A stretch of DNA of 64,000 bases. It comes from Mobula birostris (lineage: Eukaryota). Of the stretch, positions 1,340-64,000 are shown one piece after another. The notes beneath the pieces are model-generated. The model was not told the origin of the DNA, searched no databases, and saw only the letters and a program-made list of their open reading frames with translations. The stretch covers positions 54,919,433 to 54,983,432 of the forward strand of contig NC_092385.1 in assembly GCF_030028105.1 (NCBI RefSeq). The letters run 5' to 3'. Position numbers and translations under genes: made by a program. Position 1 is the stretch's first letter, and every line of letters starts with the position of its first letter.

Positions 1340-2090
1340 CTCTTCTTATTTTCCATTCCCATTCTGGCTCCCTTCTTACCCATTCTCCTCACCTGTCTAA
1401 CACTCCCACTGGTGCCCCTCCTACTTGCTTTTCTCCCATGGTCCTCTCTCCTCTCCTATCAGATTCCTTCTTCTTTAGCCCTTTACCTTTTCCACCTATC
1501 ACCTTCCAGCTTCTTACTTCATCCCCCTCCCTTAACAATTTACCTTCCCCCTCACCTATCACCTTCTCACTTGTACTCCTTCCCCTGACCCACCTTCCAA
1601 TTCTGGCTCCTTCCCCTTTCCTTTCTAGTTTTGATGAAGGGCCTCACCCTGAAACAGTGTCTCTTTATCCCTCTCCATAGATGCTGCCTGAAGTGCAGAG
1701 TTCTGCCAGCATTTTGTGTATGTTATTCCAGATCTGCAGAATCTCTTGTGTTTATTAATCCCATAATTTAATCTCCCCACATTCTCATGAACTCCTTCCC
1801 CACTCCATCTATCACCTATAGTCTCCGGCACTATTCCTACTCTCCCCTCCTCCATTTGCCTATCACCCCTCCTTATCTGGATCTACCTATCGCCTGCTAG
1901 CCCCTGCTCCACCCTTTCCATCCAAATTTTTAGACTGATCAGCACCCCTCTTTCTTTCAGTCCTGATCAGGATCCCAACTTGAGACATTAACTGTCCATT
2001 TCTCTCTGTACATGTTGCCTGACCCACTGTGTTCCTAAAACATCTGGTGTGTTCCTCTAGATTACTAGTCTGGGAACCTAACTTCTGCAC
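1340..2090 (+). mobile_element. Two tandem Penelope-like element 3' ends (pLTR-like) with degenerate hammerhead motifs
   Basis: Pyrimidine-rich PLE tail followed by TTGATGAAGGG..CCCTGAAAC (~1626-1663), and a second decayed copy (~1958-1995); same tail as the PLE copies at 3965-4520 and 49165-49640. Confidence 0.7.
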
Positions 2091-3964: not shown

Positions 3965-4520
3965 TTTCAGGATCAGTACCTCATATTCTACCTGAGTAGT
4001 TTCCAAACCAATGGTATGAACATTGAATTTTGAATCTTCCAGTAACTGTTCCCTTTCTGTCCCTTTTCTCTTTTCGCTTTTCTTACTCCCCCCCCAATCG
4101 CTCTGTCTCTTCCCCTTTTGCCATCCTCTCCATCTGCCCATCACCCACACACTCCTCCCACTGGTTCCCCTCCCACCTCCCTCCCTTAATGTCAGGCTCC
4201 ACCTTACACTCCTATCAGCTTCCATCATTTTCAGCCATTTGTCACTTCCTGGCTTATGACACCATTCATGCCCTACTGCTCCCTTATCTGCCTAACATCT
4301 CCCCTTACCTCGATCCATCTGTCACCTACCAGCTCCTGACTCACCCCTTCCCTCCACCAATTTATACTGGCTATCTCCCCACTTTCTTTCAATACAGATG
4401 AAGTACTTTGACCCAAACATCGACTGTTCATTTCCCTCCATAGAGGCTGCCTGATCTGCTGAGTTCCTTCACCATTTTGTGTGTTGCTCCATATTTCTGG
4501 CATCTGCAGTTTTTTGAGTT
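3965..4520 (+). mobile_element. Penelope-like element 3' end
   Basis: QYLIFYLSSFQTNGMNIEF resembles the PLE GIY-YIG C-terminus (EQHLIFRLGSLQP.GMNIEF); followed by the pyrimidine-rich tail and a decayed hammerhead remnant at ~4395-4425. Confidence 0.75.
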
Positions 4521-12234: not shown

Positions 12235-13005
12235 GAAATACTGCAGCATACGGTAAAGAAGGCATATTGCATGCTTGCCCTTATTAATAAAGGCATGAAG
12301 TTCAAAAGCAACGCATGCAAATTGCTGGAGGAACTCAGCAGGTCAGGCATTGGCTGTGGAAAGTAAAGAAGAGTCAATGTTTCAGGGAGACCCTTCATCA
12401 GGAATTAAGTTCAAGAATCAGGAAGTTAGACTGCAGCTTTATAAAACTCTAGGTAGGCTGCATCTGGGGTATTGCATTCAATTCTGGTCACTCCATTAAG
12501 GAAGGATGTGGAGACCTTAGAGAGGGTGCAAAGAGGTTTACCAAGAATGCTGTATGGAGTATAGGACATGTGCTATAATGAGAAGTCGGACAAATCTGGG
12601 TTGTTTTCTCTGGTGGAGGGTGAGGAGAGACCTGATTATAAGAGTATGAGAGGATTAGGTTGAATAAGCAACCAGTGTCTTTTTCCCAGGGTCAAAATGT
12701 TTAATATTAGAGGCATACCCTTAAGGAGGGAAGGAGTAATGTTAGGGGAGCTGTTCAGGTCATGTTTTCTACACAGGCCATGGCGGTTGCTTGTACTGTG
12801 CTGTCAGGGATGGTAGTGGAGGCAAATACATTCGAGGTTTCCAAGAGGCCCGGAGAGGGGCACATGATTGTGAGAGAACTAGAAGGATGTAGACATTGTG
12901 CAGGCAGACAGATTAATTTAGTTGGGCATTTACTTACTAGTTTAATTAATTTGGCACAGCATCTTGGGCCAAAAAGCCTGTTGCTGTGTTGTACTGTTCT
13001 AGTCC
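12235..13005 (+). mobile_element. CR1 LINE 3' fragment interrupted by a PLE end (~12310-12403)
   Basis: Decayed ..KKAY.MLA..EFK..LQLYKTL..RKDVE.LERVQ coding remnants and CR1 tail. Confidence 0.75.
12371..12403 (-). ncRNA. Minimal type I hammerhead ribozyme motif (PLE-associated), stem I truncated
   Basis: Minus strand TC-CTGATGA-AGGG TCT CCCT-GAAA-CATT-GACTC. Confidence 0.55.
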
Positions 13006-13449: not shown

Positions 13450-14095
13450 TCACAGTGTTCTGTTCTGGTTACCTCATCATTGAAAGAATATGGAGGCTTT
13501 AAGGAGATTTACCAGAATGTTGGCTGGATTAGAGAGCATGTCTTATGAGGAAAGGCTGAGCGAGTGAAGGAGTATGAGAGACAACTTGATAAAAGTGTAC
13601 AAGATGAGGAGAGGCACATTGAGTGGATTGTCAGAAACTTTTCCCCAGGGCAGAGCATGCCAACTCAAGGGAGAATAATTTTAAGGTATTACTTCTAAGG
13701 AAAGTAATTTAAAGGTATAACTTTTAAGGAAAGTAGTTTTAAGATATGACTTTTAAGGAAAGTAATTCTAAGGTATAACTTTTAAGGAAAGCAATTTTAA
13801 GGTATAACTTCTAAGGAATGCCATGTTAAGGTACAACTTTTAAGAAAAAATTCAGGAAATTACAGGGGGGATATCAGCGGTAAGTTTTTATACAGTGAGT
13901 GATGGGTGTGTGGAACAACCCGTTCGAGACAGATTCACCACGGATATTTAAAATCTCTTAGATAGGCACGTGGATGATGGAAAAATGGAGAGCTATGTAG
14001 GAGGGAGAGGTTTAGGTTGATCATAGAGTAGGTTAAAAGGTTGGAGCAACATTGTTGGCCGCAAGGTCTGTACTGCGCTGTAGTGTTGTATGTTT
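13450..14095 (+). mobile_element. CR1 LINE 3' fragment
   Basis: TTCTGGTTACCTCATCATTGAAAGAATATGGAGGCTTT..; CR1 tail TGTACTGCGCTGTAGTGTTG. Confidence 0.75.
13678..13845. repeat. 29-bp minisatellite, ~6 copies, inside a CR1
   Basis: Unit TTTTAAGGTATAACTTTTAAGGAAAGTAA recurs at 29-bp period (13684, 13713, 13742, 13771, 13800, 13829). Confidence 0.85.
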
Positions 14096-14259: not shown

Positions 14260-14826
14260 GACCATAAACCATTCAGCCCATTGAATATGTTCCATTATTT
14301 GATCTTGGCTGATCCATTTCCCTCTTAACCCCATTCTCCTGCCCTGTCCCCATAACCTTTCACTCACTGACTAATCCAGAACCTACCAACTTCCACATTA
14401 AATGCACTCAGTGACCTGGCCTCTTCAGCCACTTGTGGCAATGAATTCCACAGATTTACTACCCTCTGGCTAAAGAAATTCTTCCTCATCTCTGTTCTAA
14501 ATAGATGTCCCTCTATTTTAAGGCTGTGCCATCTGGTCCTGGACTTCTCCACCAAAAGAAACATCCTCTTTACATCCACTCTATCTAGACCTTTCAATAT
14601 TTGATAGGTTTCAATGAGATGCCCCCTCATTCTTCTAAATTCCAGTGAGTACAGGCCCAGAGCCTTCAATTATTGCTCATATGGTAACCCTTTCATTCCC
14701 AGAATCATTTTTGTAAACCTTTCCTGGACCCTCTCCAATGTCAGCATATCTTTTCTTAAATAAGGGGCCCAAAACCACTCACAATACTCCAAGCGAGGCC
14801 TCACCGGTGGCTTATGAAACCTCAGT
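14260..14826 (-). mobile_element. CR1 LINE 3' fragment
   Basis: ORFs 14364-14669 and 14670-14963: VRPRLEYCEWFWAPYLRKD..LGLYSLEFRRMRG..FFSQRVVNLWNSLP. Confidence 0.9.
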
Positions 14827-15520
14827 ATGTACATGTAGTGTGGTCTGTCATCAGATAACCTGATAACCGGGCATGTGAAGTATAAGATAAACATTATGAC
14901 TTTGACCACCGTCACACTAATAAGTACAACAAAAACCTCCGGAAAGGAATATAAATTGTGCAACTGCCTTTAAAATGGAAAGCTGGCAGAGACTGGAAGC
15001 TGGGGACACTTCCTTCAGACAGGTCTATCTTGTATTAGTAGGCACCCTGAGGGTTTGCGTGCTGGGCACTGGCAGGGAACTTCAGAATCCATCCATGGTC
15101 AGTCACAGTGCTGTTGATTGGAGGACAAAGGCAGGATAAAGACCAGTTGCTCATGAATTGTTCGACTGCAGCAGCATGCTGAAGTCCAGCCTAAGCAGCA
15201 CTGCCATGCGATTTGTATCTATTAGCTTGACATTTCCAGGAGATGCATTTGACTATTCTCTCCTGCCTTGGTGCTCAGCAGAGTATGCAAAGGCCTCTGG
15301 GTGAGTTGGACTCTACACCAGCAAGATGAGGCAGGCGATGGTCAGTCAGGAATACTCTGCATTTAAAAGCAGCTGAAAAGAAATTGTGTTTTGGGAGCCT
15401 TCCACGTCTCCATTACCTCCTGAATTCATTATAGAAACATAGAAAATAGGTGCAGGAGTAGGCCATTCGGCCCTTCGAGCCTGCACCGCCTTTTATTATG
15501 ATCATGGCTGATCATCCAAC

Positions 15521-17200
15521 TCAGAACACCGCCCCAGCCTTCCCTCCATACCCCCTGACCCCCGTAGCCACAAGGGCCATATCTAACTCCCTCTTAAATA
15601 TAGCCAATGAACTGGCCTCAACTGTTTCCTGTGGCAGAGAATTCCACAGATTCACCACTCTCTGTGTGAAGTAGTTTTTCCTAATCTCGGTCCTAAAAGG
15701 TTTCCCCTCTATCCTCAAACTGTGACCCCTCGTTCTGGACTTCCCCAACATCGAGAACAATCTTCCTGCATCTAGCCTATCCAATCCCTTTAGGATCTTA
15801 TACGTTTCAATCAGATCCCCCCTCAATCTTCTAAATTCCAACGAGTACAAGCCCAGTTCATCCAGTCTTTCTTCATATGAAAGTCCTGCCATCCCAGGAA
15901 TCAATCTGGTGAACTTTCTTTGTACTCCCTCTATGGCAAGGATGTCTTTCCTCAGATTAGGGGACCAAAACTGCACACAATACTCCAGGTGTGGTCTCAC
16001 CAAGGCCTTGTACAACTGCAGTAGTACCTCCCTGCTCCTGTACTCGAATCCTCTCGCTATAAATGCCAGCATACCATTCGCCTTTTTCACCGCCTGCTGT
16101 ACCTGCATGCCCACTTTCAATGACTGGTGTATAATGACACCCAGGTCTCGTTGCACCTCCCCTTTTCCTAATCGGCCACCATTCAGATAATAATCTGTTT
16201 TCCTATTTTTGCCACCAAAGTGGATAACTTCACATTTATCCACATTAAATTGCATCTGCCATGAATTTGCCCACTCACCCAACCTATCCAAGTCACCCTG
16301 CATCCTCTTAGCATCCTCCTCACAGCTAACACTGCCACCCAGCTTCGTGTCATCCGCAAACTTGGAGATGCTGCATTTAATTCCCTCATCCAAGTCATTA
16401 ATATATATTGTAAACAACTGGGGTCCCAGCACTGAGCCTTGCGGTACCCCACTAGTCACCGCCTGCCATTCTGAAAAGGTCCCGTTTATTCCCACTCTTT
16501 GCTTCCTGTCTGCTAACCAACTCTCCACCCACACCAATACCTTACCCCCAATACCGTGTGCTTTAAGTTTGCACACTAATCTCCTGTGTGGGACCTTGTC
16601 AAAAGCCTTTTGAAAATCCAAATATACCACATCCACTGGTTCTCCCCTATCCACTCTACTAGTTACATCCTCAAAAAATTCTATGAGATTCGTCAGACAT
16701 GATTTTCCTTTCACAAATCCATGCTGACTTTGTCCGATCATTTCACCGCTTTCCAAATGTGCTGTTATCACATCCTTGATAACTGACTCCAGCAGTTTCC
16801 CCACCATCGACGTTAGGCTAACCGGTCTATAATTCCCCGGTTTCTCTCTCCCTCCTTTTTTAAAAAGTGGAGTTACATTAGCCACCCTCCAATCCTTAGG
16901 AACTAGTCCAGAATCTAACGAGTTTTGAAAAATTATCACTAATGCATCCACTATTTCTTGGGCTACTTCCTTAAGCACCCTGGGATGCAGACCATCTGGC
17001 CCTGGGGATTTATCTGCCTTCAATCCCTTCAATTTACCTAACACCACTTCCCCACTAACATGTATTTCGCTCAGTTCCTCCATCTCACTGGACCCTCTGT
17101 CCCCTACTATTTCTGGAAGATTATTTATGTCCTCCTTAGTGAAGACAGAACCAAAGTAATTATTCAATTGGTCTGCCATGTCCTTGCTCCCCATAATCAA
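15521..17200 (-). CDS. CR1 ORF2 reverse transcriptase region (559 aa open segment)
   Basis: KSPGPDG, NYRPVSLTS, YLDFQKAFDKV, GVPQGSVLGP, KFADDTKL motifs. Confidence 0.9.
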   Translation of the reverse strand: MIMGSKDMADQLNNYFGSVFTKEDINNLPEIVGDRGSSEMEELSEIHVSGEVVLGKLKGLKADKSPGPDGLHPRVLKEVAQEIVDALVIIFQNSLDSGLVPKDWRVANVTPLFKKGGREKPGNYRPVSLTSMVGKLLESVIKDVITAHLESGEMIGQSQHGFVKGKSCLTNLIEFFEDVTSRVDRGEPVDVVYLDFQKAFDKVPHRRLVCKLKAHGIGGKVLVWVESWLADRKQRVGINGTFSEWQAVTSGVPQGSVLGPQLFTIYINDLDEGIKCSISKFADDTKLGGSVSCEEDAKRMQGDLDRLGEWANSWQMQFNVDKCEVIHFGGKNRKTDYYLNGGRLGKGEVQRDLGVIIHQSLKVGMQVQQAVKKANGMLAFIARGFEYRSREVLLQLYKALVRPHLEYCVQFWSPNLRKDILAIEGVQRKFTRLIPGMAGLSYEERLDELGLYSLEFRRLRGDLIETYKILKGLDRLDAGRLFSMLGKSRTRGHSLRIEGKPFRTEIRKNYFTQRVVNLWNSLPQETVEASSLAIFKRELDMALVATGVRGYGGKAGAVF

Positions 17201-19680: not shown

Positions 19681-19996
19681 ATAAAAAAAATTAAAAAGAT
19701 ATTATCTGAAGAAATTTATTGCAGAATCAGGAATTGACTAGAGGATTGGGCTCTCACAAGGATCAGTGAAACAGGTAACTGGATAATCTATTTTTTGTTG
19801 ATGTTTACTGAGAGCTAAATACAAGGCAAGACGTCAGGGAAACACCGTCAGTCCTTTTTTTTTGCTCATTTGTGTCATTTACAGCCAACTGAGAGGGCAG
19901 ACAAAATGTCAGATTTAATGTCATTTGTAGTCTGTCTTTACTTTCACGATTGGAGTGTTGACCCTCAGAGTTGGTTTGGGCTGGAATTTCATGTTC

Positions 19997-21460
19997 TGTG
20001 GCAGTGCTCCCCCTGACAGTGCTCCCTCTGACAGTGCTGCCCCTGACAGTGCTCCCTGTGGCAGTGCTGTCCCTGACAGTGCTCCCCCTGACAGTGCTCC
20101 CCCTGACAGTACTCTCTCTGACAGTGCTCACTCTGGCAGTGCTCCCCCTAACAGTGCTCCCTATGGTAGTGCTCCACCTGACAGTGCTCCCTGTGTCAGT
20201 GCTCCCCCTGACAGTGCTCCCTGTGTCAGTGCTCCCCCTGACAGTGCTCCCTCTGACAGTGCTCTCTCTGACAGTACACCCTTTGACAGTGCTCACTCTG
20301 ACAGTGCTCCCCTGGCAGTGCTCCCTGTGGCAGTGCTCCCCCTGACAATGCTCCCCCGGCAGTGCTCCCCCTGACAGTGCTCCCTGTGGCAGTGCTCCCC
20401 CTGACAGTGCTCCCTGTGTCAGTGCTCTCCCTGACAGTGCTCCCCCTGACAGTGCTCTCTGTGACAGTACACCCTCTGACAGTGCTCACTCTGACAGTGC
20501 TGCCCCGGCAGTGCTCACTCTGACACTGTCAGTGCACACTCTGACTGTGCTCCCTTTGATAGTGCTCTCTCGGCAGTGCTCATTCGGCAGTTCTCCCCCT
20601 GACAGTGCTCACTCTATGGCAATACTCACTGTGACACTGCTCACTCTAGCAGTGTTCACTCTGACAGTGCTCTCTCTGGCAGTGCTCACTCTGACTGTGT
20701 TCCCTTTGACAGTGCTCACTCGGCAGTGCTCATTCGGCAGTTCTCCCCCTGACAGTGCTCACTCTATGGCAATACTCACTGTGACACTGCTCACTCTGGC
20801 AGTGTTCACTCTGACTGTGTTCCCTTTGACAGTGCTCACTCGGCAGTGCTCCCCCTGACCGTGCTCACTCTGGCAGTGCTTCCTTTGACAGTGCTCCCTC
20901 TGACAGTGCTCCCTCGGCAGTGCTCCCCCTGACGTGCTCACTCTGGCAGTGTTCACTCTGACAGTGCTCATTCTGGCAGTGCTCCCTCTGACTGTGCTCC
21001 CTTTGACAGTGCTCACTCTGACAGTGCTCCCCCGGCAGTGCTCCCCCTGACGGGCTCACTCTGGCAGTGTTCACTCTGACTCTGCTCCCTTTGACAATGC
21101 TTACTTGGCAGTGCTAATTCGGCAGTGCTCCCCCTGACCGTGTTCACTCTGGCAGTGCTTCCTTTGACAGTGCTCCCTCTGACAGTGCTCACTCTGACAG
21201 TGCTCACTCTGGGAGTGCATACTCTACCAGTGCTCACTCTGTGGCAATACGTATTCTGACAGTGCTCACTCTGGTGGTGCACACTCTGGCAGTGCTTACT
21301 CTGACAGTGTTCACACTGCAGTGTACACTCTGACAGTGCTCACTCTATGGCAATACATGCTCTGTTAGTGCTCTCTCTGGCAGTGTACATACTGTGGCAG
21401 TACTTACTCTGGCAGTGCTCCCTCTGACAGTGCCAACTCTGACAGTGCTCACTCTGTGGC
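19997..21460. repeat. 15-bp minisatellite (CAGTGCTCCCCCTGA / CAGTGCTCACTCTGA)
   Basis: Roughly 95-100 tandem units with variant blocks; explains the TVLPL/STVRG repetitive ORFs. Confidence 0.95.
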
Positions 21461-22325
21461 ATGTGAATCACTTCTGGGTGTAGACCATGCTGGTGCTAGT
21501 TGCATACAGGGAGAAGTGACACTGGTCTCCCACCCCCTCCTTTAGTAACCCTGACACCAGAAAGTTGAGTGGGCAGAAACCTTGGCCTCAACCGTCAGAG
21601 TGAATCAAGTAGGGGTATACACCCTGAATTTAGGTCACTGTGACATTTAATTATGTAAACTAAAGCAATTAGCTTTGGACAATCTTCGCTGCTTGGAGAG
21701 TTGGTATAGGTGTGGATCCCCACAGATCATAGGAGGATATGGTCTTTGGTTGAATGCCATGATCGTAGGCCCACCGTCCTCTGCTCCATTTGGAAGTCTA
21801 CTAAGCACCATTCCATATGTATCCACTACAGGGAGTATCCAAGGTCTTACGGAGAGGCAGAGCACAGTAGAGATCTCACTAGTGATTGGTACAGGTCTTA
21901 GAGCAGGCAGACAGTCTCTGTAATGTGCACACGACAGTGTAATTGTCCTGTTTACCGACTCTGGAAACCCTGTTTGTTCATGAGTGTCCAATGACAGGCA
22001 GGCTTTGGAAAAGCATCCGTGGCTCCTGCAAATCAGTGTCACATGATGATTAATTTTCATAGACGTGTGTCTCTGCTGGAATACATCACCCAAAGGTAAT
22101 CTTGGTGGGAAGTGTCCAATTATATCTCTGATTGAAGCAGGATCCAAAGGCAATTTGGCTGCAAAGGTTTAATTCCTAAATGAGTAGCTGTGAAGTAAAT
22201 GGTGCTGTGTGAATAAAATAGTGTTTTACAATGCTGCTTGATCATGAGTCCATCTTCATTCAGAGCTGATCGAACTCTGCTCTCTCTGCTGGTTTGGAAA
22301 AAATGTTTAGATTAGATTGAGGATC

Positions 22326-22883
22326 ATAAGACCATAGGAGCAGAGGTAGGTCCTTCGGCCCATCAAGTCTGTTCTGTCAGTCCATCTTGGTGGATTTATT
22401 ATCCCTCTCAACCCCGTCCTCCTGCCTTCTCCTTGTAACCTTTGATGACCTTACTAGCCAAGAACCTCGCAACCTCCACTTTAAATATATCCAATGATTT
22501 GGCCTCCACAGCCATCTGTGGCAATAGATTCCATAGATACAGCACCCTCTGGCTCAAGAAATTCCTCCTTATCTCTGTGCTAAAGAGAGGCATCATTGTA
22601 TTCTGAGGCTGTGCCTTCTGGTTCAAGACTCCCCCACTGTAGGAAGCATCCTCTCTAAGCCCACACGACCTAGGCCTTTCAATATTTAATAGGTTTCATT
22701 AAGATCCCCCCCTTATTCTTCTAAACTCTCATGAGTACAGGCCCAGAGTCTTCAAACACTCCTCAAAGATTAACCCTTTCATTCCTGTGATTATCCTTGT
22801 GAGCCTCCTCTGGACCCTCCCCAATGCCAGCACATCATTTCTTAGAAAAGTGGCCCCAAACTGCTCACAATACTCCAACTGTG
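22326..22883 (-). mobile_element. CR1 LINE 3' fragment
   Basis: QLEYCEQFGATFLRNDVLALGRVQRRLTR..; CATAAGACCATAGGAGCAG tail. Confidence 0.85.
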
Positions 22884-23024
22884 GATAGCTGAGGTAGCCC
22901 AGGAAAGGAGACCATTTGGCCCTACCTGGGTACAGGAAGGATGTCAGAAAGCTGGAAAGGGTGTAGTGAAGTTTCACAAGGATGTTGCCAGGACTTGAAG
23001 ACTTGAGCTATCAGGATAGGCTGG

Positions 23025-23193
23025 CAACACACACCAAAAGGCAGAAGGAACTTGGTAGGCCAGGCAGCATCAATGGAAAAGAGTATCGTTGGCATTTCGG
23101 ACCGAGACGCTTCAGCAGGGCTAATGAAGCTCCTCCGTTCTTCTGGTGTGTGTTACTTGGTTTTCTAGCATCCACAGATTATCTTGTTTGTGT
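23025..23193 (-). mobile_element. Palindromic PLE-derived mini-element with hammerhead-like core
   Basis: Perfect 14-bp TSD TCAGGATAGGCTGG (23011-23024, 23194-23207); inverted arms; minus-strand CTGCTGAAGCGTCTCGGTCCGAAATG. Confidence 0.75.
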
Positions 23194-30526: not shown

Positions 30527-31886
30527 TGTCACATGGTAGGGCTTTGGGAGCAAGGGTGGACCCAAATGCAAGACACATCGTGTGAGGTTAAGTAAATTGA
30601 GTTTATTGTTTGATACCAGGAGAGCAAGGCAGGAGCAGGAATAGTGAATTGGACAAGGACTCAGGACTACCACTAGGCTGGGACTAAGGGACTGGGCTAG
30701 GACGCGGAATTGGATCCCAAAACTAGAGGTGACATGAAGAGGCTACGGTATGGACTCCAAGCCAGAGACTGGGCAAAGACCCAGTACCTGGCTCTTGCCT
30801 CGGGCTCGGACCCCAGAATCAGGCATGGACTAGGGAGAGGAGGAACATGGAAAAACAGAGGCTCGGTCTCGGGAGAGCAGGTACATAGAACCATGGACAC
30901 ATACACAGAACACAGAGTCGGGACCCCTCCTTGGGTACAGGACATAGGACCGGGACTCATAACCCCCCCGCGGGGCAACGGAAGACGGCCTGACTTACCC
31001 CACGGAGGCAAGGACAAGACAAGACAAGACATGACCCCCTGCGGGGCAACGGCAAGATGACCTGACTTACCCCACGGAGGTGAGGACAAGACAAGGCAAG
31101 ACATGACCCCCTGCGGGGCAACGGCAAGGCGGCCAGACTTACCCCACGGAGGTGAGGACAAGACAAGACCAACATGAAAGAACACCAGACAGTACCTATC
31201 TAGCTCCGGTGATAGAACTAGATGGAGGTGCAGGTGAGAGGGGCAGAGAAGGGATTCAGACAGCGGGGTAGGACAGGAATCACAGACCGCCAAGGCCAGG
31301 ACTTGACTCGGAACTTGGATGCTGCCAGGGCCAGGACTCGACTCGGAACTTGGATGCCGCCAGGGCTGGGACTTGACTCGGAACTTGGATGCCGCCAGGG
31401 CCGGGACTTGACTCGGTACGTGGATGCCCCCAGAGCTAGGACTTGACTTGGAGCCTCCAGGTAGTGGTGAGCTCTCGACTCGGCCCGGGAACAGTAGACA
31501 GCGGTTCTTGATTCCCTCCGGCGGGTTAACTGACGGACCCACCTCAGTGAGGAAACTTTGCAGGCTCGCTTTGGCAAGGTAACTTGACAGGGTTGCTCCG
31601 GTGAGGAAAGGGAAATTACTGGCACTCGCTTCGGGCGGAGACTAGGCTTGCTCCGGCCGGATGACATTGGCACACTGTACCTTCGGTGAGTTTGCAGACG
31701 CTCTCGTGCTGAACGGCTGAAAGTGGGAGACTATAAACTACCGGTTCAGTCGAGAGTAAATTGCCTCCAATCACCAAAGCCGAAGGACATGGGAAAACAG
31801 GGAACCAAAGGGAAACAGGGAGTCAACAGTCTGGATCGTAACATAAACAAAGTAAATTTAAAGGGACCCCGATCCGGACCGTGACA
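30527..31886 (-). mobile_element. Probable solo LTR (1360 bp) with internal tandem repeats
   Basis: Termini TGTCAC...GTGACA, perfect 5-bp TSD ATAAG, minus-strand AATAAA near 30603, GC/CpG-rich; ~72-bp x3 and 35-bp x5 internal repeats. Confidence 0.8.
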
Positions 31887-48895: not shown

Positions 48896-49164
48896 TCATC
48901 CTCTGCTGTAAGTTTCACACAAAGATGTGCTGCTAGGTAAATGGGTACTGTAAGTTGTCTTGGTGTATGTGGGTGGTGGGAGAATTGAGAAGCATTAATT
49001 GGCAAGTGGGAGGGAATGGGATACAGGGAAATAAGTTGGGGAGGGTGGGGGGGGTGCGCGAAGGAATGGGATTGTCCACTGGGCAGAGCAACCTCCTTCT
49101 ATGTCATAAGAAAATATGTAAACATTGGGGCATGTTCTGCCAAAAGCACAATTTTCTGATGATC

Positions 49165-49640
49165 AAATATCATAATTCCGATCTGCATTCCCACTGGGAC
49201 ATGTCAGTCCTTGGCCTCCTCTTTTGCCACGATGAGGCCACTCTCAGGGTGGAGGAGCAACTCCTCTTATTCTGTCTGGGTAATGCCCAATCTGATGGCA
49301 CAGGCATCAATTTCTCCTTCCCCCCAAAAAATTCCCAACCCCTTCCCTCTTCTTCTCTGGCCTCTCATCTCTTCTCTTCACCTGCCCTCCTTCTTCCCTT
49401 TCTCTCATGGTCCACTCTCTTCTCCAATCAGGACCTTTCTTCTCCAGCCCTTTACCTTTCCCACTCACCTGACTTCACCTATCACCTTCAAACTAGTCCT
49501 CCTTCTCCTTCCCCCAACCTTTTTATTCTGGTGTCTTCCCCCTTACTTTCCAGTCCTGAGGAAGGGTCTCAGCCTGAAACATTGACTGGTAATTCATTTC
49601 TGTAGATACTGCCTAACTTCCTCCAGTGTTTTGTGTGTGT
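49165..49640 (+). mobile_element. Penelope-like element 3' end with hammerhead
   Basis: HSHWDMSVLGLLFCHDEATLRVEEQLLLFCLG..Q.DG..INFS, then the pyrimidine-rich tail. Confidence 0.85.
49551..49588 (+). ncRNA. Minimal type I hammerhead ribozyme motif
   Basis: CAGTC-CTGAGGA-AGG GTCTCAG CCT-GAAA-CATT-GACTG; stem I CAGTC/GACTG; CGTCG decayed to CATTG by CpG deamination. Confidence 0.7.
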
Positions 49641-50918: not shown

Positions 50919-51120
50919 CACAAGGAGTTCTGCAGACGCTGGGAATCTAAAGCAACACACACAAAATTCTGGAAGAACTCAGCAGGCCAGGCAGCATCTA
51001 TAGAGGGGAATGAACAGTCATTTTCGGGTTATGAAGGGTCACGGCCTGAAGCATCTATTTTATTTCCTTGTGTGGATGCTCCTTGACTTGCCGAGTTCCT
51101 CTAGTATTTCTGTGTGTTGT
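50919..51120. mobile_element. Palindromic PLE-derived mini-element
   Basis: CAACACACACAAAATTCTGGAAGAACTCAGCAGG is inverted against GCCGAGTTCCTCTAGTATTTCTGTGTGTTG; central decayed ATGAAGGGTCACGGCCTGAA. Confidence 0.7.
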
Positions 51121-54100
51121 TTATTAGTTACAAAGTGCCTTTGGATGAGAAATGTACAAATCATTTCTTTGTATCCCCAAGTGAGTTAAGCCCTGTTAAT
51201 TATTCCTTAGGTAGAAAACAGTCACTTAGCTCTTCAGTGAAGTGTCAAACTCTGTGAATGGCAAACTTGTAGAATCAATAGTAGATTTGAGCAAGTGCTT
51301 ACAGGACATATTTAGCTCCCATGCCTGTCAATAATTTTCCATTACTGGAGTGAGTAATCCTGCTGTTAGTTTCTTTGCTGTATATTCTTCGATTAGTGGG
51401 CTTGATAGCCTCCTCCTTGTCATCAACATTTTTTGGTCTCAGTATCTGCCATGATCCACCAAGTCCACCAAGTGTCCGTCAGGCGGAATCTTTTCATAAC
51501 CTGCAGGGCTGAACAAATGGATAGCCTTTGCTTAAAAACGCTCTGGAAAACTGCAAATGACTGTCTGGTTCTGGGAGTTTCCATAAGACACAAGTTGTGT
51601 AAATGATAAGATGGTAACTGCAATCAGGCAAAGGGTCACTGAAGGTTGTTAGATTAATTATCCAGTATAATTCGCCACTAATGGAGGTGTATAGTTGAGT
51701 CTGAGGAAGGATGACGGATTTAGGGAGATAATAAATAGGATTACTGTTGGATTAGAATAAACGTGTGCTTAATTATTAATACAGGTTTGGTGAGCTGCAG
51801 GACCTATTCCATGACGCAGCAGAGACACGATGGGCTGAACTGCCTCCTGTGCCGCATGATGCTATGATAACCTCAATCTGTCTAGCATCATAGTATTGTC
51901 ACCCAAGCTTGGTGTCCAGGGACAGTTTTATGAAGTGAAGAGCAACATTACTCCTAGTTCTAACCTCCGGCTTCTCTTTCCAGCACATTCAAGCTTGTGT
52001 GCTATGTTTTTGTGTCCATCTGTATCCCTATTCATCATTTACCAACTGAACTGTTCTGCATTTCTAAATACTGAGTTCTGCCCACACAACCTCCCTGAAG
52101 ACCCACACTCAACAATTCAGAAACAGCCTCCTCCCTCCTGTCATCAGATTTATGAACAGCATGAACACCACCTTATAGTCATTTTTTTCAGCTGTTTGTA
52201 TATTTTTCTAATTGATAGAGGAGTCATGGAGTGATAAATAATTACAGCACAGTCCCAGACCCTTTGGCCCATCTAGTCCATGCTGAACTGTTACCCTGCC
52301 TAGTCCCATCGACCTGCAACTGGACCATAGCCTCCATAACCCTCCTCATCTGTGCACTTATACAAATTTTTCCTTAAGTGCTGTAATTGACCACTTCCAC
52401 TGGCAGCTCAACCCACCACGCTCTGAGTGAAAAAGTTCCCCTTAAATATTTCACCTTTTACCCTTAACCCTAGTCCCTAGTTCTAGTAATTGTATGTCTT
52501 TGCACTGCACTGTGCTGCTGCCACAGAACAATAAATTTCGTGTCATATAATCAATGATAAGACCACAAGACTTAAGAGCAGAGTTATGCCAATCCGCTCT
52601 GCCATTCCATCATGGCTGATTTATTATCCCCATTCACCTGCCCTTTCCCCATAACCTTTGATGCCCTTACTAAATAAGAATCTATAAATAAATCTGTTTC
52701 TGAATCTGATGCCCCTAATCACACAATTCTGTCGGGATCAAAGGTTACGATCTCCTCATGTTCTCAGCAAGACTGTGTTGAACTCACCCTTCCTTCCTCA
52801 GCTCTTGAAGCATCTGTCCTTCAATTCCAGCATTTATGGCAACTGGACTTTAATCTCTCCATCATCAGCAACAAATGTCTTTTGCCAGTAAAGCTCTAAA
52901 CCGTGACTTTCTTTTCCCAACTCTCGCCATGTTCATAACTCTTCCCTTTGTTGAGGTGGTCTTTTACATCCAAATATTTGACAGAGCTCTTGGTCATCTG
53001 TAGGATGTGATCCTCAGTCTCAAACATAAAGCTCATGAAAAGCCCTTTCGGACATGCTGCTACATCAAAAACTGTCACCTCTCAGTACTAACACCATCAG
53101 ACGGCATATTGTTTGCTGTTTGCCACCTCAAAATGCAGCTCAGATAACAGTAGAGAACTTCTCTACTGTTGTGTGTGGTATGCCAATAATACCTCATGTA
53201 CCACATGAAAATCTGCTCAGGCTTCCTGTCACAGACCCTGCAAGGGAAAGGGAGATGAATGCTATCATTCTATATTCCTGGCATGATACACAGATGCTTT
53301 AGTGGAATAGTTGTTATTTGTTTCACGCCTTTGAAAAGGTTGTACTGTATTCCACATGTTGTCTATCTCCTTCACAGTTCAAGGCCTTGAAAGCCAAAGT
53401 TGTTTATTGTCATCTGCACAAGTACATGAATGCAATGAAAGACATTGTTGCAGAGCATCACATGTTCAAAGCGTCATTTTAGCAATATTAACAAAAAACA
53501 TAAATTAAACATACTTTAAATAAAATTAAATAAAATTAATAAAACATTAAATAAAAGAACACAATTAGAACTAAAAAAAGTCCATTTTAGTCAAAGTTCC
53601 TTCAATTTTTTTTTGCAGCTGTGCAGACCAACCATTGTTCTGAGCAGGAAATTTTTACATGGCCTGAAACTCTGTGTGGTACTTTATTTATTTTTTTATG
53701 TAATATGCATTCTATGAATGTTTAGAATGCAAATTGGAAAATAGCATACTTTTTATTTTATTTATTAATTGAAGGATATAATGAAATACCGTACAACAAA
53801 GAAAATCTTTCATGTTCCGTAAACTTTTTCTAGCTGTGTCCAATTCCAGCTGCAAGGCAACGAAGGCTATGTGCGCAGGAGCATTTCAGTTACTGCAACG
53901 CTGCACACCGACGCTGTGGGTGATTTTAGTACTAAGTTATTAAAGTGGTCATAGTGTTGCCCATGATGTTGTGCTTATTCCACAATCAATCCAATCAATC
54001 TCCTAAATAGCCTATCACCGGCACACACACCTCCTTTTTCCCTTCATCCATGTGCCTATCTTAATTAAGAGTTTTTTTAAATGTTCCTGATATATCAGCC

Positions 54101-54246: not shown

Positions 54247-54418
54247 AAGCTGGACACACGAGAGATTCTGCAGATGCTGGAAATGCTGAGCAACACGCAC
54301 AAAATGCTGAAGGAACTGAGCAATCCTGATGAAGGGCTTTAGCCTGAAATGTTGACTGTTCATTTTCCTCCGTAGGTGCTGCCTGACCTGCTGAGTTCCT
54401 CCAGCATTTTGTCTGTGT
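54247..54418 (+). mobile_element. Palindromic PLE-derived mini-element
   Basis: TSD AACTCTG (54240-54246, 54419-54425); inverted arms CAAAATGCTGAAGGAACTGAGCA / TGCTGAGTTCCTCCAGCATTTTG. Confidence 0.75.
54321..54358 (+). ncRNA. Minimal type I hammerhead ribozyme motif (decayed)
   Basis: CAATC-CTGATGA-AGG GCTTTAG CCT-GAAA-TGTT-GACTG. Confidence 0.6.
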
Positions 54419-55649
54419 AACTCTGTTAACTCACCTAAGACCCTCCATCAGTTCAAAGACGAAAGCACTAAAGGTTGAACACTTAACCTTTCCTCATAAG
54501 CCAAGTTCTGTAATCCAGGCAGCAGCCTGGTAGATTCCTCTGCAAGCCCTCTAAGACTTCCATAGCCTTTGTATAATGAGGTGACCAGAGCTCTAAGTAT
54601 AGTATTAACCCGTTTTACAGAATTGCAACTTTACTTCATGGTCTGCTGAACTCAATCTTCTGACTAATGAAGGGTATTACACCATACACCTTCCTATAGG
54701 AGGTAGCTGTCCTTGAACTTGGTGGTGTGGGACTTCAGGCTTTTGGTTTCAGGCCTTCAAGAAGGAATTGGATAAATAAATGGTGGAGAAAAAATTGCGA
54801 TGACGAAAGGGCCTGAAAGTTGGAACTAGAGAATAAAAATAAGAATATTCGGATGTTGGAAATCTGAAATTTGGTATAGAATTGATGTGGGGCTGAATGA
54901 TCTTATCATTCCAGCCTTTAGTACCACAGACCTTGTCCCTACAGAGTAAGTGCCTCCCCTTCCTTTCTGGTCCTGTGTAACATGGTACAAAGCTGCTGAG
55001 CAGTACCATCATGAGTGGGAGAGTGGCTTACTGTTTATTCCCAAGTGTCGTTAAAAGTTAATGATGCCAAATGCACGGTGGGATTCTGCACAAATTTTCT
55101 GCTTCTGTCAGGTATGCGGTTTCACACCTGCCTCCTAGTGAAGAAAGTAAGCAAATAGTGACTCTTTGTGGTTCCAGTCCTATTGTGCCAAGATTTAGAC
55201 TCCAGGGGCCAAGGGAGCCCCTAGGGAATGGTCAATTTCAAGATTTCTTTTTCTTACAACGTGGAAAACTGTTGGCTGGAATTGTTGATTATACTGCAGC
55301 CCTGCACCTTCAGTGTGTCAAACATTCTTAACGAGTCCGCAGGGTTATCTGTTGAGCAAAGCTCTAATAGGTAACACAGCAGTTTTGACGTTGCAGTAGA
55401 TGTGTTATCACCAACTCTGCTTTTAGTCCTGCCAAAGCCTAGAACAAGGTTTTATCAGACACATTTGAGCCAGGAACACAAGAAATTGTCCTTAGCAGAG
55501 TAGGCCTGACTCCTCAGGATGCATTATTCAGGAAATACAATGTTCTTTATTTCATCACTGTAGCAATATTATTTCAGGTCCTTTCCACAGAACAGACTTG
55601 GAATGTGTTTGATTCTGTTGATCTGGCTGGAGAAGTGAGAATCATTTTC

Positions 55650-57745: not shown

Positions 57746-57950
57746 TGCCTCCCCAAGCAACAGCTCATAAAGAACAAGGAACGTCAGTTGTCTTAGACAA
57801 GTTGAATGGACTAGGAAGTCCTTTTTTGCCTGTTATTGAACACAAGAACAGTATTTTCATAAACAAGAGAAAATCTGCAGATGCTGGAAGTCCACACATA
57901 CAAAATGCTGGAGGAACTCAGCAGGCGGGCAGCATCTATAGAAAAGAGGA

Positions 57951-57988
57951 CAGTCGACGTTTCGGGCTGAGACCCTTCAGCAGGACTG
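57951..57988 (-). ncRNA. Best-preserved minimal type I hammerhead motif (A6C core variant), in a PLE end at 57861-57990
   Basis: Minus strand CAGTC-CTGCTGA-AGGG TCTCAG CCC-GAAA-CGTC-GACTG; GUC cleavage triplet; palindromic ACGT stem III. Confidence 0.7.
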
Positions 57989-58124
57989 GAGAAATAAATG
58001 CTTTCATGGGTGTTATGGATGTGGACATCGTATACATGCCAAGCTCTATTTCAATATGATAAATCTTTCTGCCTCCATCACTGGTTCCACATGCCAGTGA
58101 GCTTTTGTAACAGGATAATAATAA

Positions 58125-58438
58125 ATAATAAAGGCATCCGTTAGTCTTGCGAGACCATGGATCTGCACCTGGAAAGTCTTCACTCTCCAGGGCGCAGGCC
58201 TGGGCAAGGTTGTATGGAAGACCGGCAGTTGCCCACGCTGCAAGTCTCCCCTCTCCACGACACCGATGTTGTCCAAGGGAAGGGCAAGGGCCGATACAAC
58301 TTGGCACCAGTGTCGTCGCAGAGCAATGTGTGGTTAAGTGCCTTGCTCAAGGACACAACATGCTGCCTCGGCTGGGTCTCGAACTCACAACCTTTAGGTT
58401 GCTAGTCGAATGCCTTAACCACTTGGCTACGTGCCCAC
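58125..58438 (-). mobile_element. tRNA-headed SINE with CORE-like segment and RTE-type tail
   Basis: A box TAGCCAAGTGG, B box GTTCGAGACCC, TGTGTCCTTGAGCAAGGCACTTAAC, tail shared with 37436-37635. Confidence 0.8.
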
Positions 58439-58494
58439 ACTATAATAAGATATCTCTCCTCTAAATCCTTTCACCAATTACTTTAAATTGTCTT

Positions 58495-59630
58495 CCGTTC
58501 TGGTTGCCTCATTATAGAAAGGATGTAGAAGCTTTAGAGAGGGTGTAGAGGAGATCTACCAGGATGCCGTCTTGATTAGAATGCATGCCTTATGAGGATA
58601 GGTTGAGCAAGCTGGTGCTTTTCTCTTTGGAATGAGAAAGGTGAAAGGAGAAGGGATGAAAGGTGGCTTGATAGAGGTGTACAAGATGATAAGAGGCGTG
58701 GATCGAGTGGATAGCCAGAGACTTTTCCCCAAGGCATAAGTGGCTAATGCGAGGGGGCATAATTTTAAGGTGATTGGGGGAAAGTATAGCGGTAAGCTCT
58801 TTACACAGAGAGTGGCAGGTGCATGGAGCACCCTGCCCTGATGGTGTAGGAGGTACATTAGGAGCATTTAAGAAACTTTTAAATAGCGACACAGATGATA
58901 GAAAAATGGAGGGTTATCCAGGAGGGGAAACTATAATAGCAAGGGGAATAGAAGATAAAAGCGAGATAATGCTGAGGCTTTATTAGACACCAGTCAGGTC
59001 GAACTTGGAGTATTGTCAACAGTTTTGAACCCCATATCTCTGAAAGGATGTGTTGTCATTGGAGAGAGTCCAGAGGAGGTTCACAAGGATGATTCCGGGA
59101 ATGGAGAGGTTAACATATGAGGAGTGTTTGGCAGCTTTGGGCCTGTACTCACTGGAGTTTAGAATAATGTGTGGGAATCTCATTGAAACCTACCGAATGT
59201 TGAAAGGACTGGATAGGGTGGATGTGGAGAGGATGTTTCCTATGGTGGGCATATCTAGAACTAGAGGGCACAGCCTTAAAATTGAGGGGTGACCCTTTAG
59301 AACAGAGGTAAGGAGGAATTTTTTTCAGCCAGAGAGTAGTGAATCTATGGAATGCTCTGCCACAGACTGTGGTGGAAGCCAAGTCCATGAGTATATTTAA
59401 AGCGGAAGTTGATAGTTTCCTGATTGGTCAAGGCATCAAGGGATATGGTGAGAAGGCAGGTATATGGGGTTGAGTGGGATCCAGGATCAGCCATGATGGA
59501 ATGGCAGAGCAGACTCAATGGGCTGAATGGCCTAATTCTACCCCTATATCTTATGGTCTTAAGGGTTAGATTAATCTTAAGGTTGGCTAAAAGGTCATTA
59601 CAACATCATGGCCCAAAGGGCTGTACTGCT
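58495..59630 (+). mobile_element. Nested CR1 fragments (58930-59560 inserted in the tail of another subfamily)
   Basis: Two successive CR1 C-terminal segments; the outer 3' UTR resumes at ~59561 (AAGGGTTAGATT). Confidence 0.8.
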
Positions 59631-62020: not shown

Positions 62021-63039
62021 TTCTAGGACTACAGGACTCAAAATCATCTTTCTGATGTTTAATGTTCATTGAAAAATCATATTTTCTGAAAAATATAATT
62101 CCCTTCATTGTGTTTTCAGTGTCATTATGGCATATGTTAAAAATGAAGATGCTTCCATGATTGTGTGCAGTTGCAATCAAGGAGTTGAGCATGTTCCTCA
62201 AAGCTCCAGGTGTTGCTGCTCATCCCCACGTGCTTGCAATGGTTTTACATTTCACCTGATGCTGTCAGGTTGAATCGAACTCCATACGTCCGGAATGCGC
62301 AGACTCACAGTTCTGTCTCTGAACACCATGTAGATGACAAACCACAGAACTAGGTCTTCTGCGATTTCTTAGAATTTAGTTGGGAATTTTTATCTCTTCA
62401 ATCCCAAAACAAGCCACCCACACTCAGCCCTCCAGATCAATGTCAAAGTTGAGTTGATTGTCATAAGCCCAAGTACAGAGGAGCAATGGAAAACTTCCCA
62501 GCAGCATCATAGATACAGAGCTTCATTTTCATAACGTTCAGAAGGAAAACATAAATGATCCACGTTTTCCAGGAAAGAAGTCGGTCAGGACAAAAATAAA
62601 CAGTGTTTATTATAATGCATAGTGTTGCAAAACTGCAGTGATGAGATCAATGCAGGTTGGTTGAAAGGAAATAGCTGTTCTTGATACTTTGTTGCAGGAC
62701 TTCAGACTCATATTACGCCTGTTTTAAAGTACTCAACTGGAAAGTAATGAGGACATGAAAGCCGGCAAGTTAATTATTTATTTTCGACTTATTTCATGGA
62801 GGTGTTTTAATGAGAAACTTGATGGTTTCAGTTAATTTGTTCTCATATCTCAATTCTGCTGAAGCATTTCTTTAAAAATTGTATGCACCAATTTTAATAT
62901 TTTTAAAATGAATATCACAGGGAATTAAATACCTTAGTAAGAAGATGATCAGATTGACAGGAGTATTGCTGCTTATCATTTTGATCTCTCATAGTGTAGC
63001 ATTCCTTCAATACCACACTATCCCTCCCTTAGTAACATA

Positions 63040-64000
63040 CCACTGACAGTGCACCACCCCCTCTCACTCAGTACCACACAGTGACAGTGTGTCACTCCCT
63101 CAGTACCACACACTCATAGTGTATCACCCACTCGGTACCACACACTGACAGTGTATCACTCCCTCAGTACAACACACTCACAGTGTATCACTCCCTCCGT
63201 ACCACACACCGACAGTGTATCACTCCCTCAGTACCACACACTGACAGTGCATCACTCCCTCAGTACCACAAACTGACAGTGTATCACTCCCTCAGTACCA
63301 CAAACTGACAGTGTACCACTCCCTCGGCACCACATACTGACAGTGTATCACTCCCTCAGTAACACACACTGACAGTGTATCACTCCCACCGTTCCACACA
63401 CTGACAGTGTATCACTCCCTCAGTACCACACACTGACAGTGTATCACTCCCTCAGTAACATACACTGACAGTGTATCACTCCCTCAGTAACACAAACTGA
63501 CAGTGTATCACCCCCTCGGTAACACACAGTGACAGTGTATCACTCCCTCAGTACCACACAGTGACAGTGTATCACTCACTCAGTACCACACACTCACAGT
63601 GTATCACTCCCTCAGTACCACACACTGACAGTGTATCACCCACTCGGTACCACACACTGACGGTGTATCACTCCCTCAGTACAACACACTCACAGTGTAT
63701 CACTCCCTCAGTACCACACACTGACAGTGTATCACTCCCTCAGTAACACACACTGACAGTGTATCACTCCCTCGGTACAACACACTCACAGTGTATCACT
63801 CCCACCGTACCACACACTGACAGTGTATCACTCCCTCAGTACCACACACTGACAGTGTATCACTCCCACCGTACCACACACTGACAGTGTATCACTCCCT
63901 CAGTACCACACACTGACAGTGTATCACTCCCTCAGTAACATACACTGACAGTGTATCACTCCCTCAGTAACACAAACTGACAGTGTATCACCCCCTCGGT
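63040..64000. repeat. 32-bp minisatellite (CACTCCCTCAGTACCACACACTGACAGTGTAT), runs off the window end
   Basis: About 30 tandem units at 32-bp period. Confidence 0.95.

What the first reader, a model, noticed from the sequence alone, without database searches (positions are those of the whole stretch)
57951..57988. Dispersed minimal hammerhead ribozymes in Penelope-like ends
At least eight related motifs occur (~1626, ~1958, 12371, ~23090, 49551, ~51030, 54321, 57951). The consensus CAGTC-CTGATGA-AGGG..CCC-GAAACGTC-GACTG gives stem I (CAGTC/GACTG), the CUGANGA and GAAA boxes, stem II and a GUC site. Stem III is the loopless palindrome ACGU, so it can only pair between two copies. Established: PLE pLTRs carry minimal type I hammerheads thought to act as dimers. 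This copy is the least decayed but has CUGCUGA, as does the 23 kb copy, suggesting a subfamily core variant rather than random decay.
Basis: partly seen in the sequence, partly recalled or inferred. Interest (0 to 1): 0.7.

Follow-up and report, generated by a model that had tools for sequence, protein, structure and literature searches.

The report
Penelope lineage with altered hammerhead core
This is the tiny hammerhead RNA motif already known from Penelope-type jumping genes, but it belongs to a branch that spread to an estimated tens of thousands of copies with a core letter changed (A to C) that would likely cripple self-cutting, which suggests these elements can spread without the cut.

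Summary
Confirmed. Window 57951-57988 (minus strand) is a minimal type I hammerhead motif in the pseudo-LTR of a Neptune/Nematis-type Penelope-like retroelement. A full-length relative (L276) has a motif on each side of an RT + GIY-YIG frame. This arrangement is published (Cervera 2014). The A6C core is inherited, not decay. With this copy's flank the genome holds 2,937 exact C6 matches, 1,249 A6 and 285 G6/T6. With a longer lineage flank, 92 of the first 100 listed are C6. C6 is 10 of 101 core-covering copies in 770 kb of unselected DNA (about 50,000 genome-wide), about 9% diverged, with an open majority frame. Published A6C hammerheads cut poorly in Mg2+. In unselected DNA 101 of 111 copies span the cut site, so templates were uncut or re-ligated. 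Best reading: the lineage amplified with a weakened ribozyme. The youngest family carries A6 and may have reverted; the tree favours this without proving it (AU p 0.11). Cleavage is untested, and the stems show no real covariation. The scan noted A6C and A6U Penelope subfamilies before in other genomes; I found no paper reporting one.

The parts
57951..57988 (-). Minimal type I hammerhead motif with A6C core. Stem I 57988-57984 / 57955-57951; box CUGCUGA 57983-57977 (C6 = 57980); extra A 57976; stem II 57975-57964; GAAA 57963-57960; self-complementary ACGU 57960-57957; predicted cut between 57956 and 57955
   Evidence: sequence; fold
57858..57998 (-). Whole insertion: a 5'-truncated pLTR end of a Penelope-like element, starting about 10 nt before the motif and ending with the 30-40 nt tail
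   Evidence: 81% identity over 139 nt to full-length L276; two peaks of 3' ends in the family
23011..23127 (-). Second C6 copy, with the short C6-type segment after stem I; starts at the motif's front edge
49045..49640 (+). Older A6-type copy: GIY-YIG remnant (49045-49317), pLTR, hammerhead at 49551
   Evidence: tblastn E 2.8e-14 and blastn to L276
1543..1755 (+). Old decayed A6 copy with upstream pLTR; motif at about 1626
1956..2052 (+). Old decayed copy; motif at 1958
3969..4514 (+).
12304..12406 (-). A6 copy starting at the motif's front edge; stem II shortened by 2 nt
50922..51122 (.). Inverted pair of truncated pLTR ends; core box broken at the inversion joint
54256..54419 (.). A6 copy (plus strand, motif at 54321) preceded by an inverted piece of the tail region

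Best explanation
The motif is the minimal hammerhead in the terminal repeat of a Neptune-type Penelope-like retroelement, and this copy belongs to a source lineage that fixed A6C in the core and kept spreading, likely because insertion uses RNA that is intact at the ribozyme and does not need efficient cutting. Shown: motif anatomy; its place about 300 nt after the stop codon and 139 nt before the first AUG in a full-length relative; C6 as the inherited state of a lineage of intermediate age; copies that span the cut site. Inferred: the RNA of tandem copies is reverse-transcribed from the tail 60-105 nt downstream of the cut site, back across the motif, so the template is uncut (or cut and re-ligated). 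Inferred from published mutants: C6 slows cleavage strongly in Mg2+. In A6 lineages the motif would cut slowly, as a two-copy (double) hammerhead with protein help, trimming tandem transcripts to units of about 3.5 kb. That step would be helpful but not required.
For: Inheritance: exact genome counts with flank TTCTCCAG are C6 2,937, A6 1,249, G6+T6 285. With the longer lineage flank there are 1,855 matches; the first 100 listed are 92 C, 6 T, 2 A. With the young family's flank C6 (141) does not exceed T6 (212), so there C6 is plain mutation. In unselected DNA C6 is 8 of 15 in one flank class against 2 of 86 elsewhere (Fisher p 1e-6). PLE context: RT (YVDD) and GIY-YIG remnants lie upstream of C6 copies. 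L276 is motif-ORF-motif with a 1,267-bp direct repeat. The C6 majority frame has no stop in 399 compared codons, and dN/dS against the young family is 0.09. Templates: 101 of 111 unselected copies and 29 of 30 copies picked only by sequence 3' of the cut extend 5' across the cut site; starts at the site (4 of 111) are not above background. Literature: A6C lowered a consensus hammerhead from 0.3 to 3.55e-6 per min in 0.3 mM Mg2+ (PMC7151607). Hammerhead mutants did not reduce insertion by the anole PLE in vitro (PMC11167929). Naiads spread widely without canonical hammerheads (PMC8557442).
Against: No cleavage was measured. The A6C data come from non-PLE ribozymes, and natural C6 Bcep176 still cut at 0.051 per min in 3 mM Mg2+ and 0.31 per min in 1 mM Mn2+. 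The C6 lineage kept stems I and II, GAAA and GUC, which suggests continued selection on the fold or on cutting, although its time span may be too short to lose them. Copies that span the cut site fit a re-ligated circle as well as uncut RNA. The youngest family is A6, as expected if cutting matters in the long run. The dN/dS of 0.09 mostly measures the young family's stem, so autonomy of the C6 sources rests only on the open majority frame over the 3' 1.3 kb; no full-length C6 copy was found (longest seen about 2.0 kb). Other notes of this scan report rare joints at the cut site in this genome; my sample was too small to test that by subfamily.
Confidence: 0.62

Rival explanations
1. C6 is tolerated: in the dimer, with the element's protein or with Mn2+, it still cuts fast enough, and cutting remains part of the cycle (for example cut, circularise, reverse-transcribe across the joint).
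For: The anole PLE hammerhead cleaves only with its protein. C6 Bcep176 is active in Mn2+. Everything else in the motif is kept in the C6 lineage. PLE minimal hammerheads are slow even with A6.
Against: A loss of about five orders of magnitude for A6C in Mg2+ in a consensus ribozyme. No pile-up of copy starts at the cut site. No RNA ends at the site in the anole data.
Confidence: 0.2
2. C6 RNAs lost their own enzyme half but were cut in trans. In the double hammerhead the CUGANGA box of one molecule cuts the GUC of the other, so A6 RNA from the far more numerous A6 copies would cut C6 RNA in a mixed dimer.
For: The active two-copy structure needs stems I and III between molecules and can be drawn without a pseudoknot for C6 x A6 (-15.7 kcal/mol). 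The substrate arm is the same in the subfamilies. A6 copies are 84 of 101.
Against: The active form is not the predicted most stable one in any pairing (C6 x C6 -19.9 against -24.3; mixed -15.7 against -27.0). Pairing between separate molecules needs high local RNA levels. There is no RNA evidence.
Confidence: 0.12
3. C6 is random decay or a mutation hot spot in dead copies.
For: Some C6 copies are independent mutants: 7 of 30 exact-core C6 loci have young-family flanks, and 2 of the 10 unselected C6 copies fall outside the C6 flank class.
Against: A transversion that reaches 92 of 100 in one flank class and stays at background in another cannot be decay.
Confidence: 0.02

Closest known systems
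Minimal hammerheads (min-HHR) in pLTRs of metazoan Penelope-like elements (Cervera and de la Pena 2014, PMC4209133; parts 1-2 of 4 read, 2 of 3 supplement files searched)
   Same: Type I, 5-bp stem I, extra base between 9 and 10.1, G10.1-C11.1, palindromic 15.2-16.2 without loop, place in the pLTR, mostly dispersed single copies.
   Different: C at position 6 fixed in a lineage; the core variant described in the parts I read is U3-A8. Stem II is 4 bp here. Copy number is far higher: about 500,000 core-covering copies by extrapolation, against thousands found by their descriptor.
A6C hammerhead of phage Bcep176 (Perreault 2011, PMC3088659, passages; Naghdi 2020, PMC7151607, part 1 of 4)
   Same: The same CUGCUGA core; predicted weak in Mg2+ and better in Mn2+.
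   Different: A single phage locus against a multi-copy animal retroelement lineage. Here the motif also lacks a monomeric stem III and has not been assayed.
PAc, Poseidon element of Anolis carolinensis (Frangieh 2024, PMC11167929; passages and second half of the main text)
   Same: Hammerhead at the pLTR-ORF junction; two 3' end positions (tail); insertion from RNA that is intact at the motif.
   Different: In PAc the ORF starts in stem II; in L276 the first AUG lies 139 nt after the cut site. This element has the CX4CxxC linker that Poseidon lacks.
Neptune/Nematis EN+ Penelope-like elements (Craig 2021, PMC8557442, passages)
   Same: RT, CX2-5CxxC linker, C-terminal GIY-YIG, partial tandem pLTR, inverted 5' copies, 30-40 bp tail.
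   Different: Neptune versus Nematis not resolved (no RT tree against references).
Non-LTR retrozymes (Li 2026, bioRxiv 10.64898/2026.07.22.740005; part 1 of 5 and passages)
   Same: Type I hammerhead related to PLE pLTRs.
   Different: Copies here are truncated ends of a coding element, not tandem non-coding units.

Membership tests
Minimal type I hammerhead of PLEs | CUGANGA box with A6 | tested here: not met
   This copy and its lineage have C6; the family at large has A6 (84 of 101)
Minimal type I hammerhead of PLEs | GAAA box, NUH site, stems I and II, G10.1-C11.1, extra base after A9 | tested here: met
Minimal type I hammerhead of PLEs | Palindromic, loopless stem III that forms only between two copies | tested here: met
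   ACGU; a double-hammerhead structure can be drawn but is not the predicted lowest-energy dimer
Minimal type I hammerhead of PLEs | Compensatory changes in the stems across copies | tested here: inconclusive
   0-5 double changes per pair among 71-100 copies, explained by CpG decay; neutral copies of near-identical sources give little power
Minimal type I hammerhead of PLEs | Location in both pLTRs of a PLE | tested here: met
   L276 has same-strand motifs 3,513 nt apart around the ORF. For C6 only the 3' position was seen
Minimal type I hammerhead of PLEs | Self-cleavage at GUC | not testable with these tools
   needs an assay
Rfam hammerhead families | Covariance-model match | tested here: not met
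   no hammerhead family among 9 matches at E<=10
EN+ PLE, Neptune/Nematis type | RT followed by C-terminal GIY-YIG | tested here: met
   L276: GIY-YIG 23.1 bits (cut-off 22.6); RVT_1 E 6.5e-4, below its cut-off; YIDD at aa 689
EN+ PLE, Neptune/Nematis type | CX2-5CxxC linker before the endonuclease | tested here: met
   aa 910-918 of L276; also in frames upstream of C6 copies L007 and L005
EN+ PLE, Neptune/Nematis type | Partial tandem pLTR, inverted 5' copies, 30-40 bp tail | tested here: met
   1,267-bp direct and 208-bp inverted repeats in L276; 3' ends peak at 95-109 and 130-144, also in C6 copies
EN+ PLE, Neptune/Nematis type | RT phylogeny with named reference elements | not tested
   no reference sequences on hand
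Non-LTR retrozyme | Tandem non-coding units, each with a hammerhead | tested here: not met
   window copies are single or inverted pairs, 5'-truncated at varied points, and continue into the ORF when long

The most novel reading that the evidence does not exclude
One retroelement lineage lost a catalytic-core base of its ribozyme (A6 to C), made about 50,000 copies in that state, and its descendant, the youngest family, regained A6. This would be a fossil record of loss and reversion, showing that cutting is dispensable for insertion but selected over the long run, with Mn2+, the element's protein or A6 partner RNAs bridging the gap. For: the young family shares the AAATCT flank and C7 with late C6 sources, whose copies are 92 C / 6 T / 2 A of 100; 6 of 10 diagnostic columns side with C6 and 2 with the older A6 group; the nested tree is better by 16 log-likelihood units. 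Against: C6 monophyly is not rejected (AU p 0.66, 0.11); the young stem is long; no C6 intermediates with the young flank were found.
Probability: 0.38. Interest if true: 0.65.

Novelty: new variant of a known kind. Interest (0 to 1): 0.45.

Why it matters
What the hammerhead does for Penelope-like elements is an open question; Craig 2021 even asks whether it merely parasitises them. A lineage that amplified with a core change known to slow cleavage is a natural experiment in an animal genome, and it agrees with the in vitro result that cleavage is not needed for insertion. It supplies matched natural A6 and C6 sequences for one cheap assay. It may also be the first multi-copy natural family with the Mn-preferring core. 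The motif itself, at this locus, is an ordinary dead copy.

Tried and rejected
Rfam scan: no hammerhead hit. Folding z-score not significant; two other stretches in that call were given on poorly chosen strands or ranges and were not used. PDB sequence search with the ORF: only 2 unrelated matches at E about 0.6. Pfam missed RT in the partial frames. No RNA holder listed by the run search; this is no evidence on expression. Raw-read run X23 laid 0 reads, so it gave no test. In one search the C6 site lay too near the end of the stretch to be read, so one search repeated the test on L147. Search for a full-length C6 element among fetched loci: none found; no copy was aligned past about 166 nt downstream into the ORF start (that test did not include L268-L287), and the longest C6 upstream match was about 2.0 kb. 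Cut-site joints by subfamily: too few to judge (the ungapped matcher also miscalls copies with indels). Reversion: two AU tests failed to reject the alternative. My first label, Penelope/Poseidon, was dropped for Neptune/Nematis. Lunse 2017 is not held, so I know it only through a review's passages (PMC6765202); it and its supplements may list C6 variants. One of three supplement files of PMC4209133 could not be searched, and bioRxiv supplements are closed. Searches behind 'no paper found'.

Full report
Observation. The minus strand of window 57951-57988 is a complete minimal hammerhead scaffold with CUGCUGA in place of CUGANGA. It folds into stems I and II with both boxes unpaired (-10.5 kcal/mol), though not better than shuffles (z -0.98, 34 of 200 as good). 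Rfam gave no hammerhead match. The window lies on contig C20 of a 4.0-Gb genome. That it is a cartilaginous fish, likely a ray, is my recollection of such repeats plus earlier notes of the scan; I did not test it.

What carries it. Longer copies continue upstream into frames with RT and GIY-YIG motifs, for A6 copies and for C6 copies. In the window a GIY-YIG remnant (49045-49317, E 2.8e-14) precedes the motif at 49551. L276 (G000:C23:41543500-41551500) is full length: motif, a 1,043-codon open frame (first Met at codon 28), motif, with cut sites 3,513 nt apart, the first 139 nt before the AUG, a 1,267-bp direct repeat and a 208-bp inverted copy. Pfam gives GIY-YIG above its cut-off and RVT_1 below it. 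A CX4CxxC linker precedes the endonuclease, which marks Neptune/Nematis and is absent in Penelope/Poseidon (PMC8557442, passages). The 3' ends peak at 95-109 and 130-144 nt from the motif start, the 30-40 bp PLE tail. The finding's copy is a 140-nt 5'-truncated end with tail.

How common. I fetched 77 stretches of 10 kb at round-number positions on large contigs (80 asked, 3 did not exist). They hold 168 hits to a profile of the element end and the reversed sequence holds 0. Of these 101 cover the core box; the other 67 were dropped for this count. Position 6 is A 84, C 10, G 4, T 3. Extrapolation gives about 530,000 core-covering copies and about 52,000 C6 copies (95% interval 25,000-96,000); 8 of the 10 have C6-lineage flanks. 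Fifteen of the 101 are fully intact A6 motifs and none is intact apart from C6.

C6 is inherited. In the unselected sample C6 is 8 of 15 in one flank class and 2 of 86 in the rest (p 1.2e-6; classes were defined after seeing the data). Whole-genome exact counts with the flank TTCTCCAG: C6 2,937, A6 1,249, G6 or T6 285. With the longer flank of the later sources there are 1,855 matches, and the first 100 listed end in C 92, T 6, A 2. With the young family's flank C6 is 141 and T6 212, so no excess. For the fully intact 34-nt core the counts are A6 6,617, C6 151, G6/T6 138; 7 of 30 fetched C6 loci of that set are young-family point mutants and 23 are not. Flanks order the sources in steps: stage 1 has 31 A and 1 C of 35, stage 2 has 5 A and 4 C, stage 3 has 47 C and 2 A of 49; 56 copies were too short or too decayed to stage, and this set includes loci chosen for C6 or A6. 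Position 7 goes from T in the A6 group (98 of 100 listed) to a T/C mix in C6 (29 of 100 C), as expected for a later CUGCCGA source with CpG decay. A UUCG version of loop II is in 32 of 100 listed C6 cores and 2 of 100 A6 cores.

Age and coding state. Median non-CpG divergence from group majority: oldest A6 0.175 (9 copies), intermediate A6 0.114 (12), C6 0.088-0.097 (33), young A6 0.046 (46). The C6 majority frame over the last 1.3 kb of the ORF has no stop in 399 compared codons; against the young family there are 85 synonymous and 29 non-synonymous differences (dN/dS 0.09). A linker length difference is -9 nt in 4 of 7 measurable C6 copies, thus in frame. Most of that divergence lies on the young family's stem, so it does not prove that the C6 sources were autonomous. 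Other organisms: at the C6 site of L147, contigs read A6 in 53% of depth in organism C, 63% in D, 96% in E and 97% in H, and only C and D cover the C6-type upstream flank (summed contig depths, biased towards the C6 reference). The C6 wave is therefore shared by some related organisms and not seen in others.

Did the young family revert? A tree of 71 copies without core columns 6-7 and CpG sites put the young A6 clade inside the C6 radiation on a long stem. A first AU test did not reject keeping it outside (p 0.66, and the constrained tree scored higher than the quick free tree). On 68 copies (14 of 47 young ones used) the nested constraint was better by 16.1 log-likelihood units, but the alternative stood (p 0.107). 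Of 10 columns that separate late C6 from intermediate A6, the young family matches C6 at 6, A6 at 2 and neither at 2 (636 comparable columns, several of the 10 in a pyrimidine tract that aligns poorly). Reversion is favoured but open.

Mechanism. Published: minimal PLE hammerheads do not cut as monomers and cut weakly as dimers (PMC4209133). In the anole element the ribozyme needs the protein, core mutants still insert, and reverse transcription starts internally at the tail (PMC11167929). A6C costs one or two hydrogen bonds (PMC3088659) and slows cleavage in Mg2+ far more than in Mn2+ (PMC7151607). Here, 101 of 111 unselected copies with a mappable 5' end (of the hits that reach the 3' part and scored at least 70) and 29 of 30 copies chosen only by sequence 3' of the cut extend across the cut site. 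Four of 111 start at it, no more than background (p 0.71), while 24 of 111 and 9 of 30 start within 5 nt of the motif's front edge (p 1e-6 and 0.006). For old copies part of that pile-up may be an alignment artefact of the variable tract upstream; 6 of 33 young hits show it by eye. So the templates were intact across GUC: uncut, or cut and re-ligated. The active double hammerhead can be drawn with stems I and III between molecules, so that one molecule's CUGANGA box cuts the other's GUC. It is 4 to 19 kcal/mol less stable than inactive dimers in the three pairings tried, which fits slow, protein-assisted cutting. I commit to this reading: the C6 lineage spread with a weakened ribozyme because insertion does not need the cut (0.62). 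The rivals are tolerated C6 (0.20), cutting in trans by A6 RNAs (0.12) and decay (0.02).

Against my reading. There is no assay and no RNA data. The stems show no real covariation. The rest of the motif was kept in the C6 lineage. The youngest family is A6. Other notes of the scan report rare joints at the cut bond in this genome, which I could not test by subfamily.

Novelty. Hammerheads in PLE pLTRs are known. Seven literature searches found natural A6C only in phage Bcep176, but Lunse 2017 and some supplements were not readable and may list it. The scan has noted A6C and A6U Penelope subfamilies in other genomes; these are unchecked notes, not support. Verdict: a real feature and a new variant of a known kind; interest 0.45.

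Noticed in passing
L031-L107 (e.g. L055:6260 -, L032:3250 -, L062:4317 +, L077:2793 -): 9 of 101 unselected copies have C at position 9 (mostly CUGAUGC-A); they are among the most decayed, so an older lineage may have had a second core variant.
   Followed up: no
window 12406, 23120, 54321 and genome-wide: Copy 5' ends pile up at the front edge of stem I (24 of 111; 9 of 30), not at the cut site. This may mark an RNA start or an RT stop.
   Followed up: partly
L095:3579 +, L118:507 +, L086:2697 -: A separate, fairly young A6 lineage (tips 0.04, stem 0.26) with a different loop II and a shorter segment after stem I.
   Followed up: no
G000:C23:41543500-41551500 (L276): Full-length young element with an open frame of 1,043 codons; several other young copies keep frames of 650-960 codons, so the family may have been active recently.
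   Followed up: partly
window 58369-58431 (-): Weak tRNA-like match (23 bits, below the gathering score) about 380 nt from the finding; probably the head of a tRNA-derived SINE (recalled, untested).
   Followed up: no
window 19964-21471, 62967-63970, 31252-31461, 13641-13872: Tandem arrays with units of 15, 32, 35 and 29 nt.
   Followed up: no
window 9535-10166, 14291-15988, 22334-23029, 58489-59562 and others: Many dispersed copies of another repeat family on both strands; they look like CR1-type LINE ends (recalled, untested).
   Followed up: no
L012 / L025 (G000:C6:1691097 and 2338436): A 99.5%-identical duplicated segment holding a C6 copy that reads CUGCUGA in one and CUGCCGA in the other: CpG decay caught in the act.
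   Followed up: no
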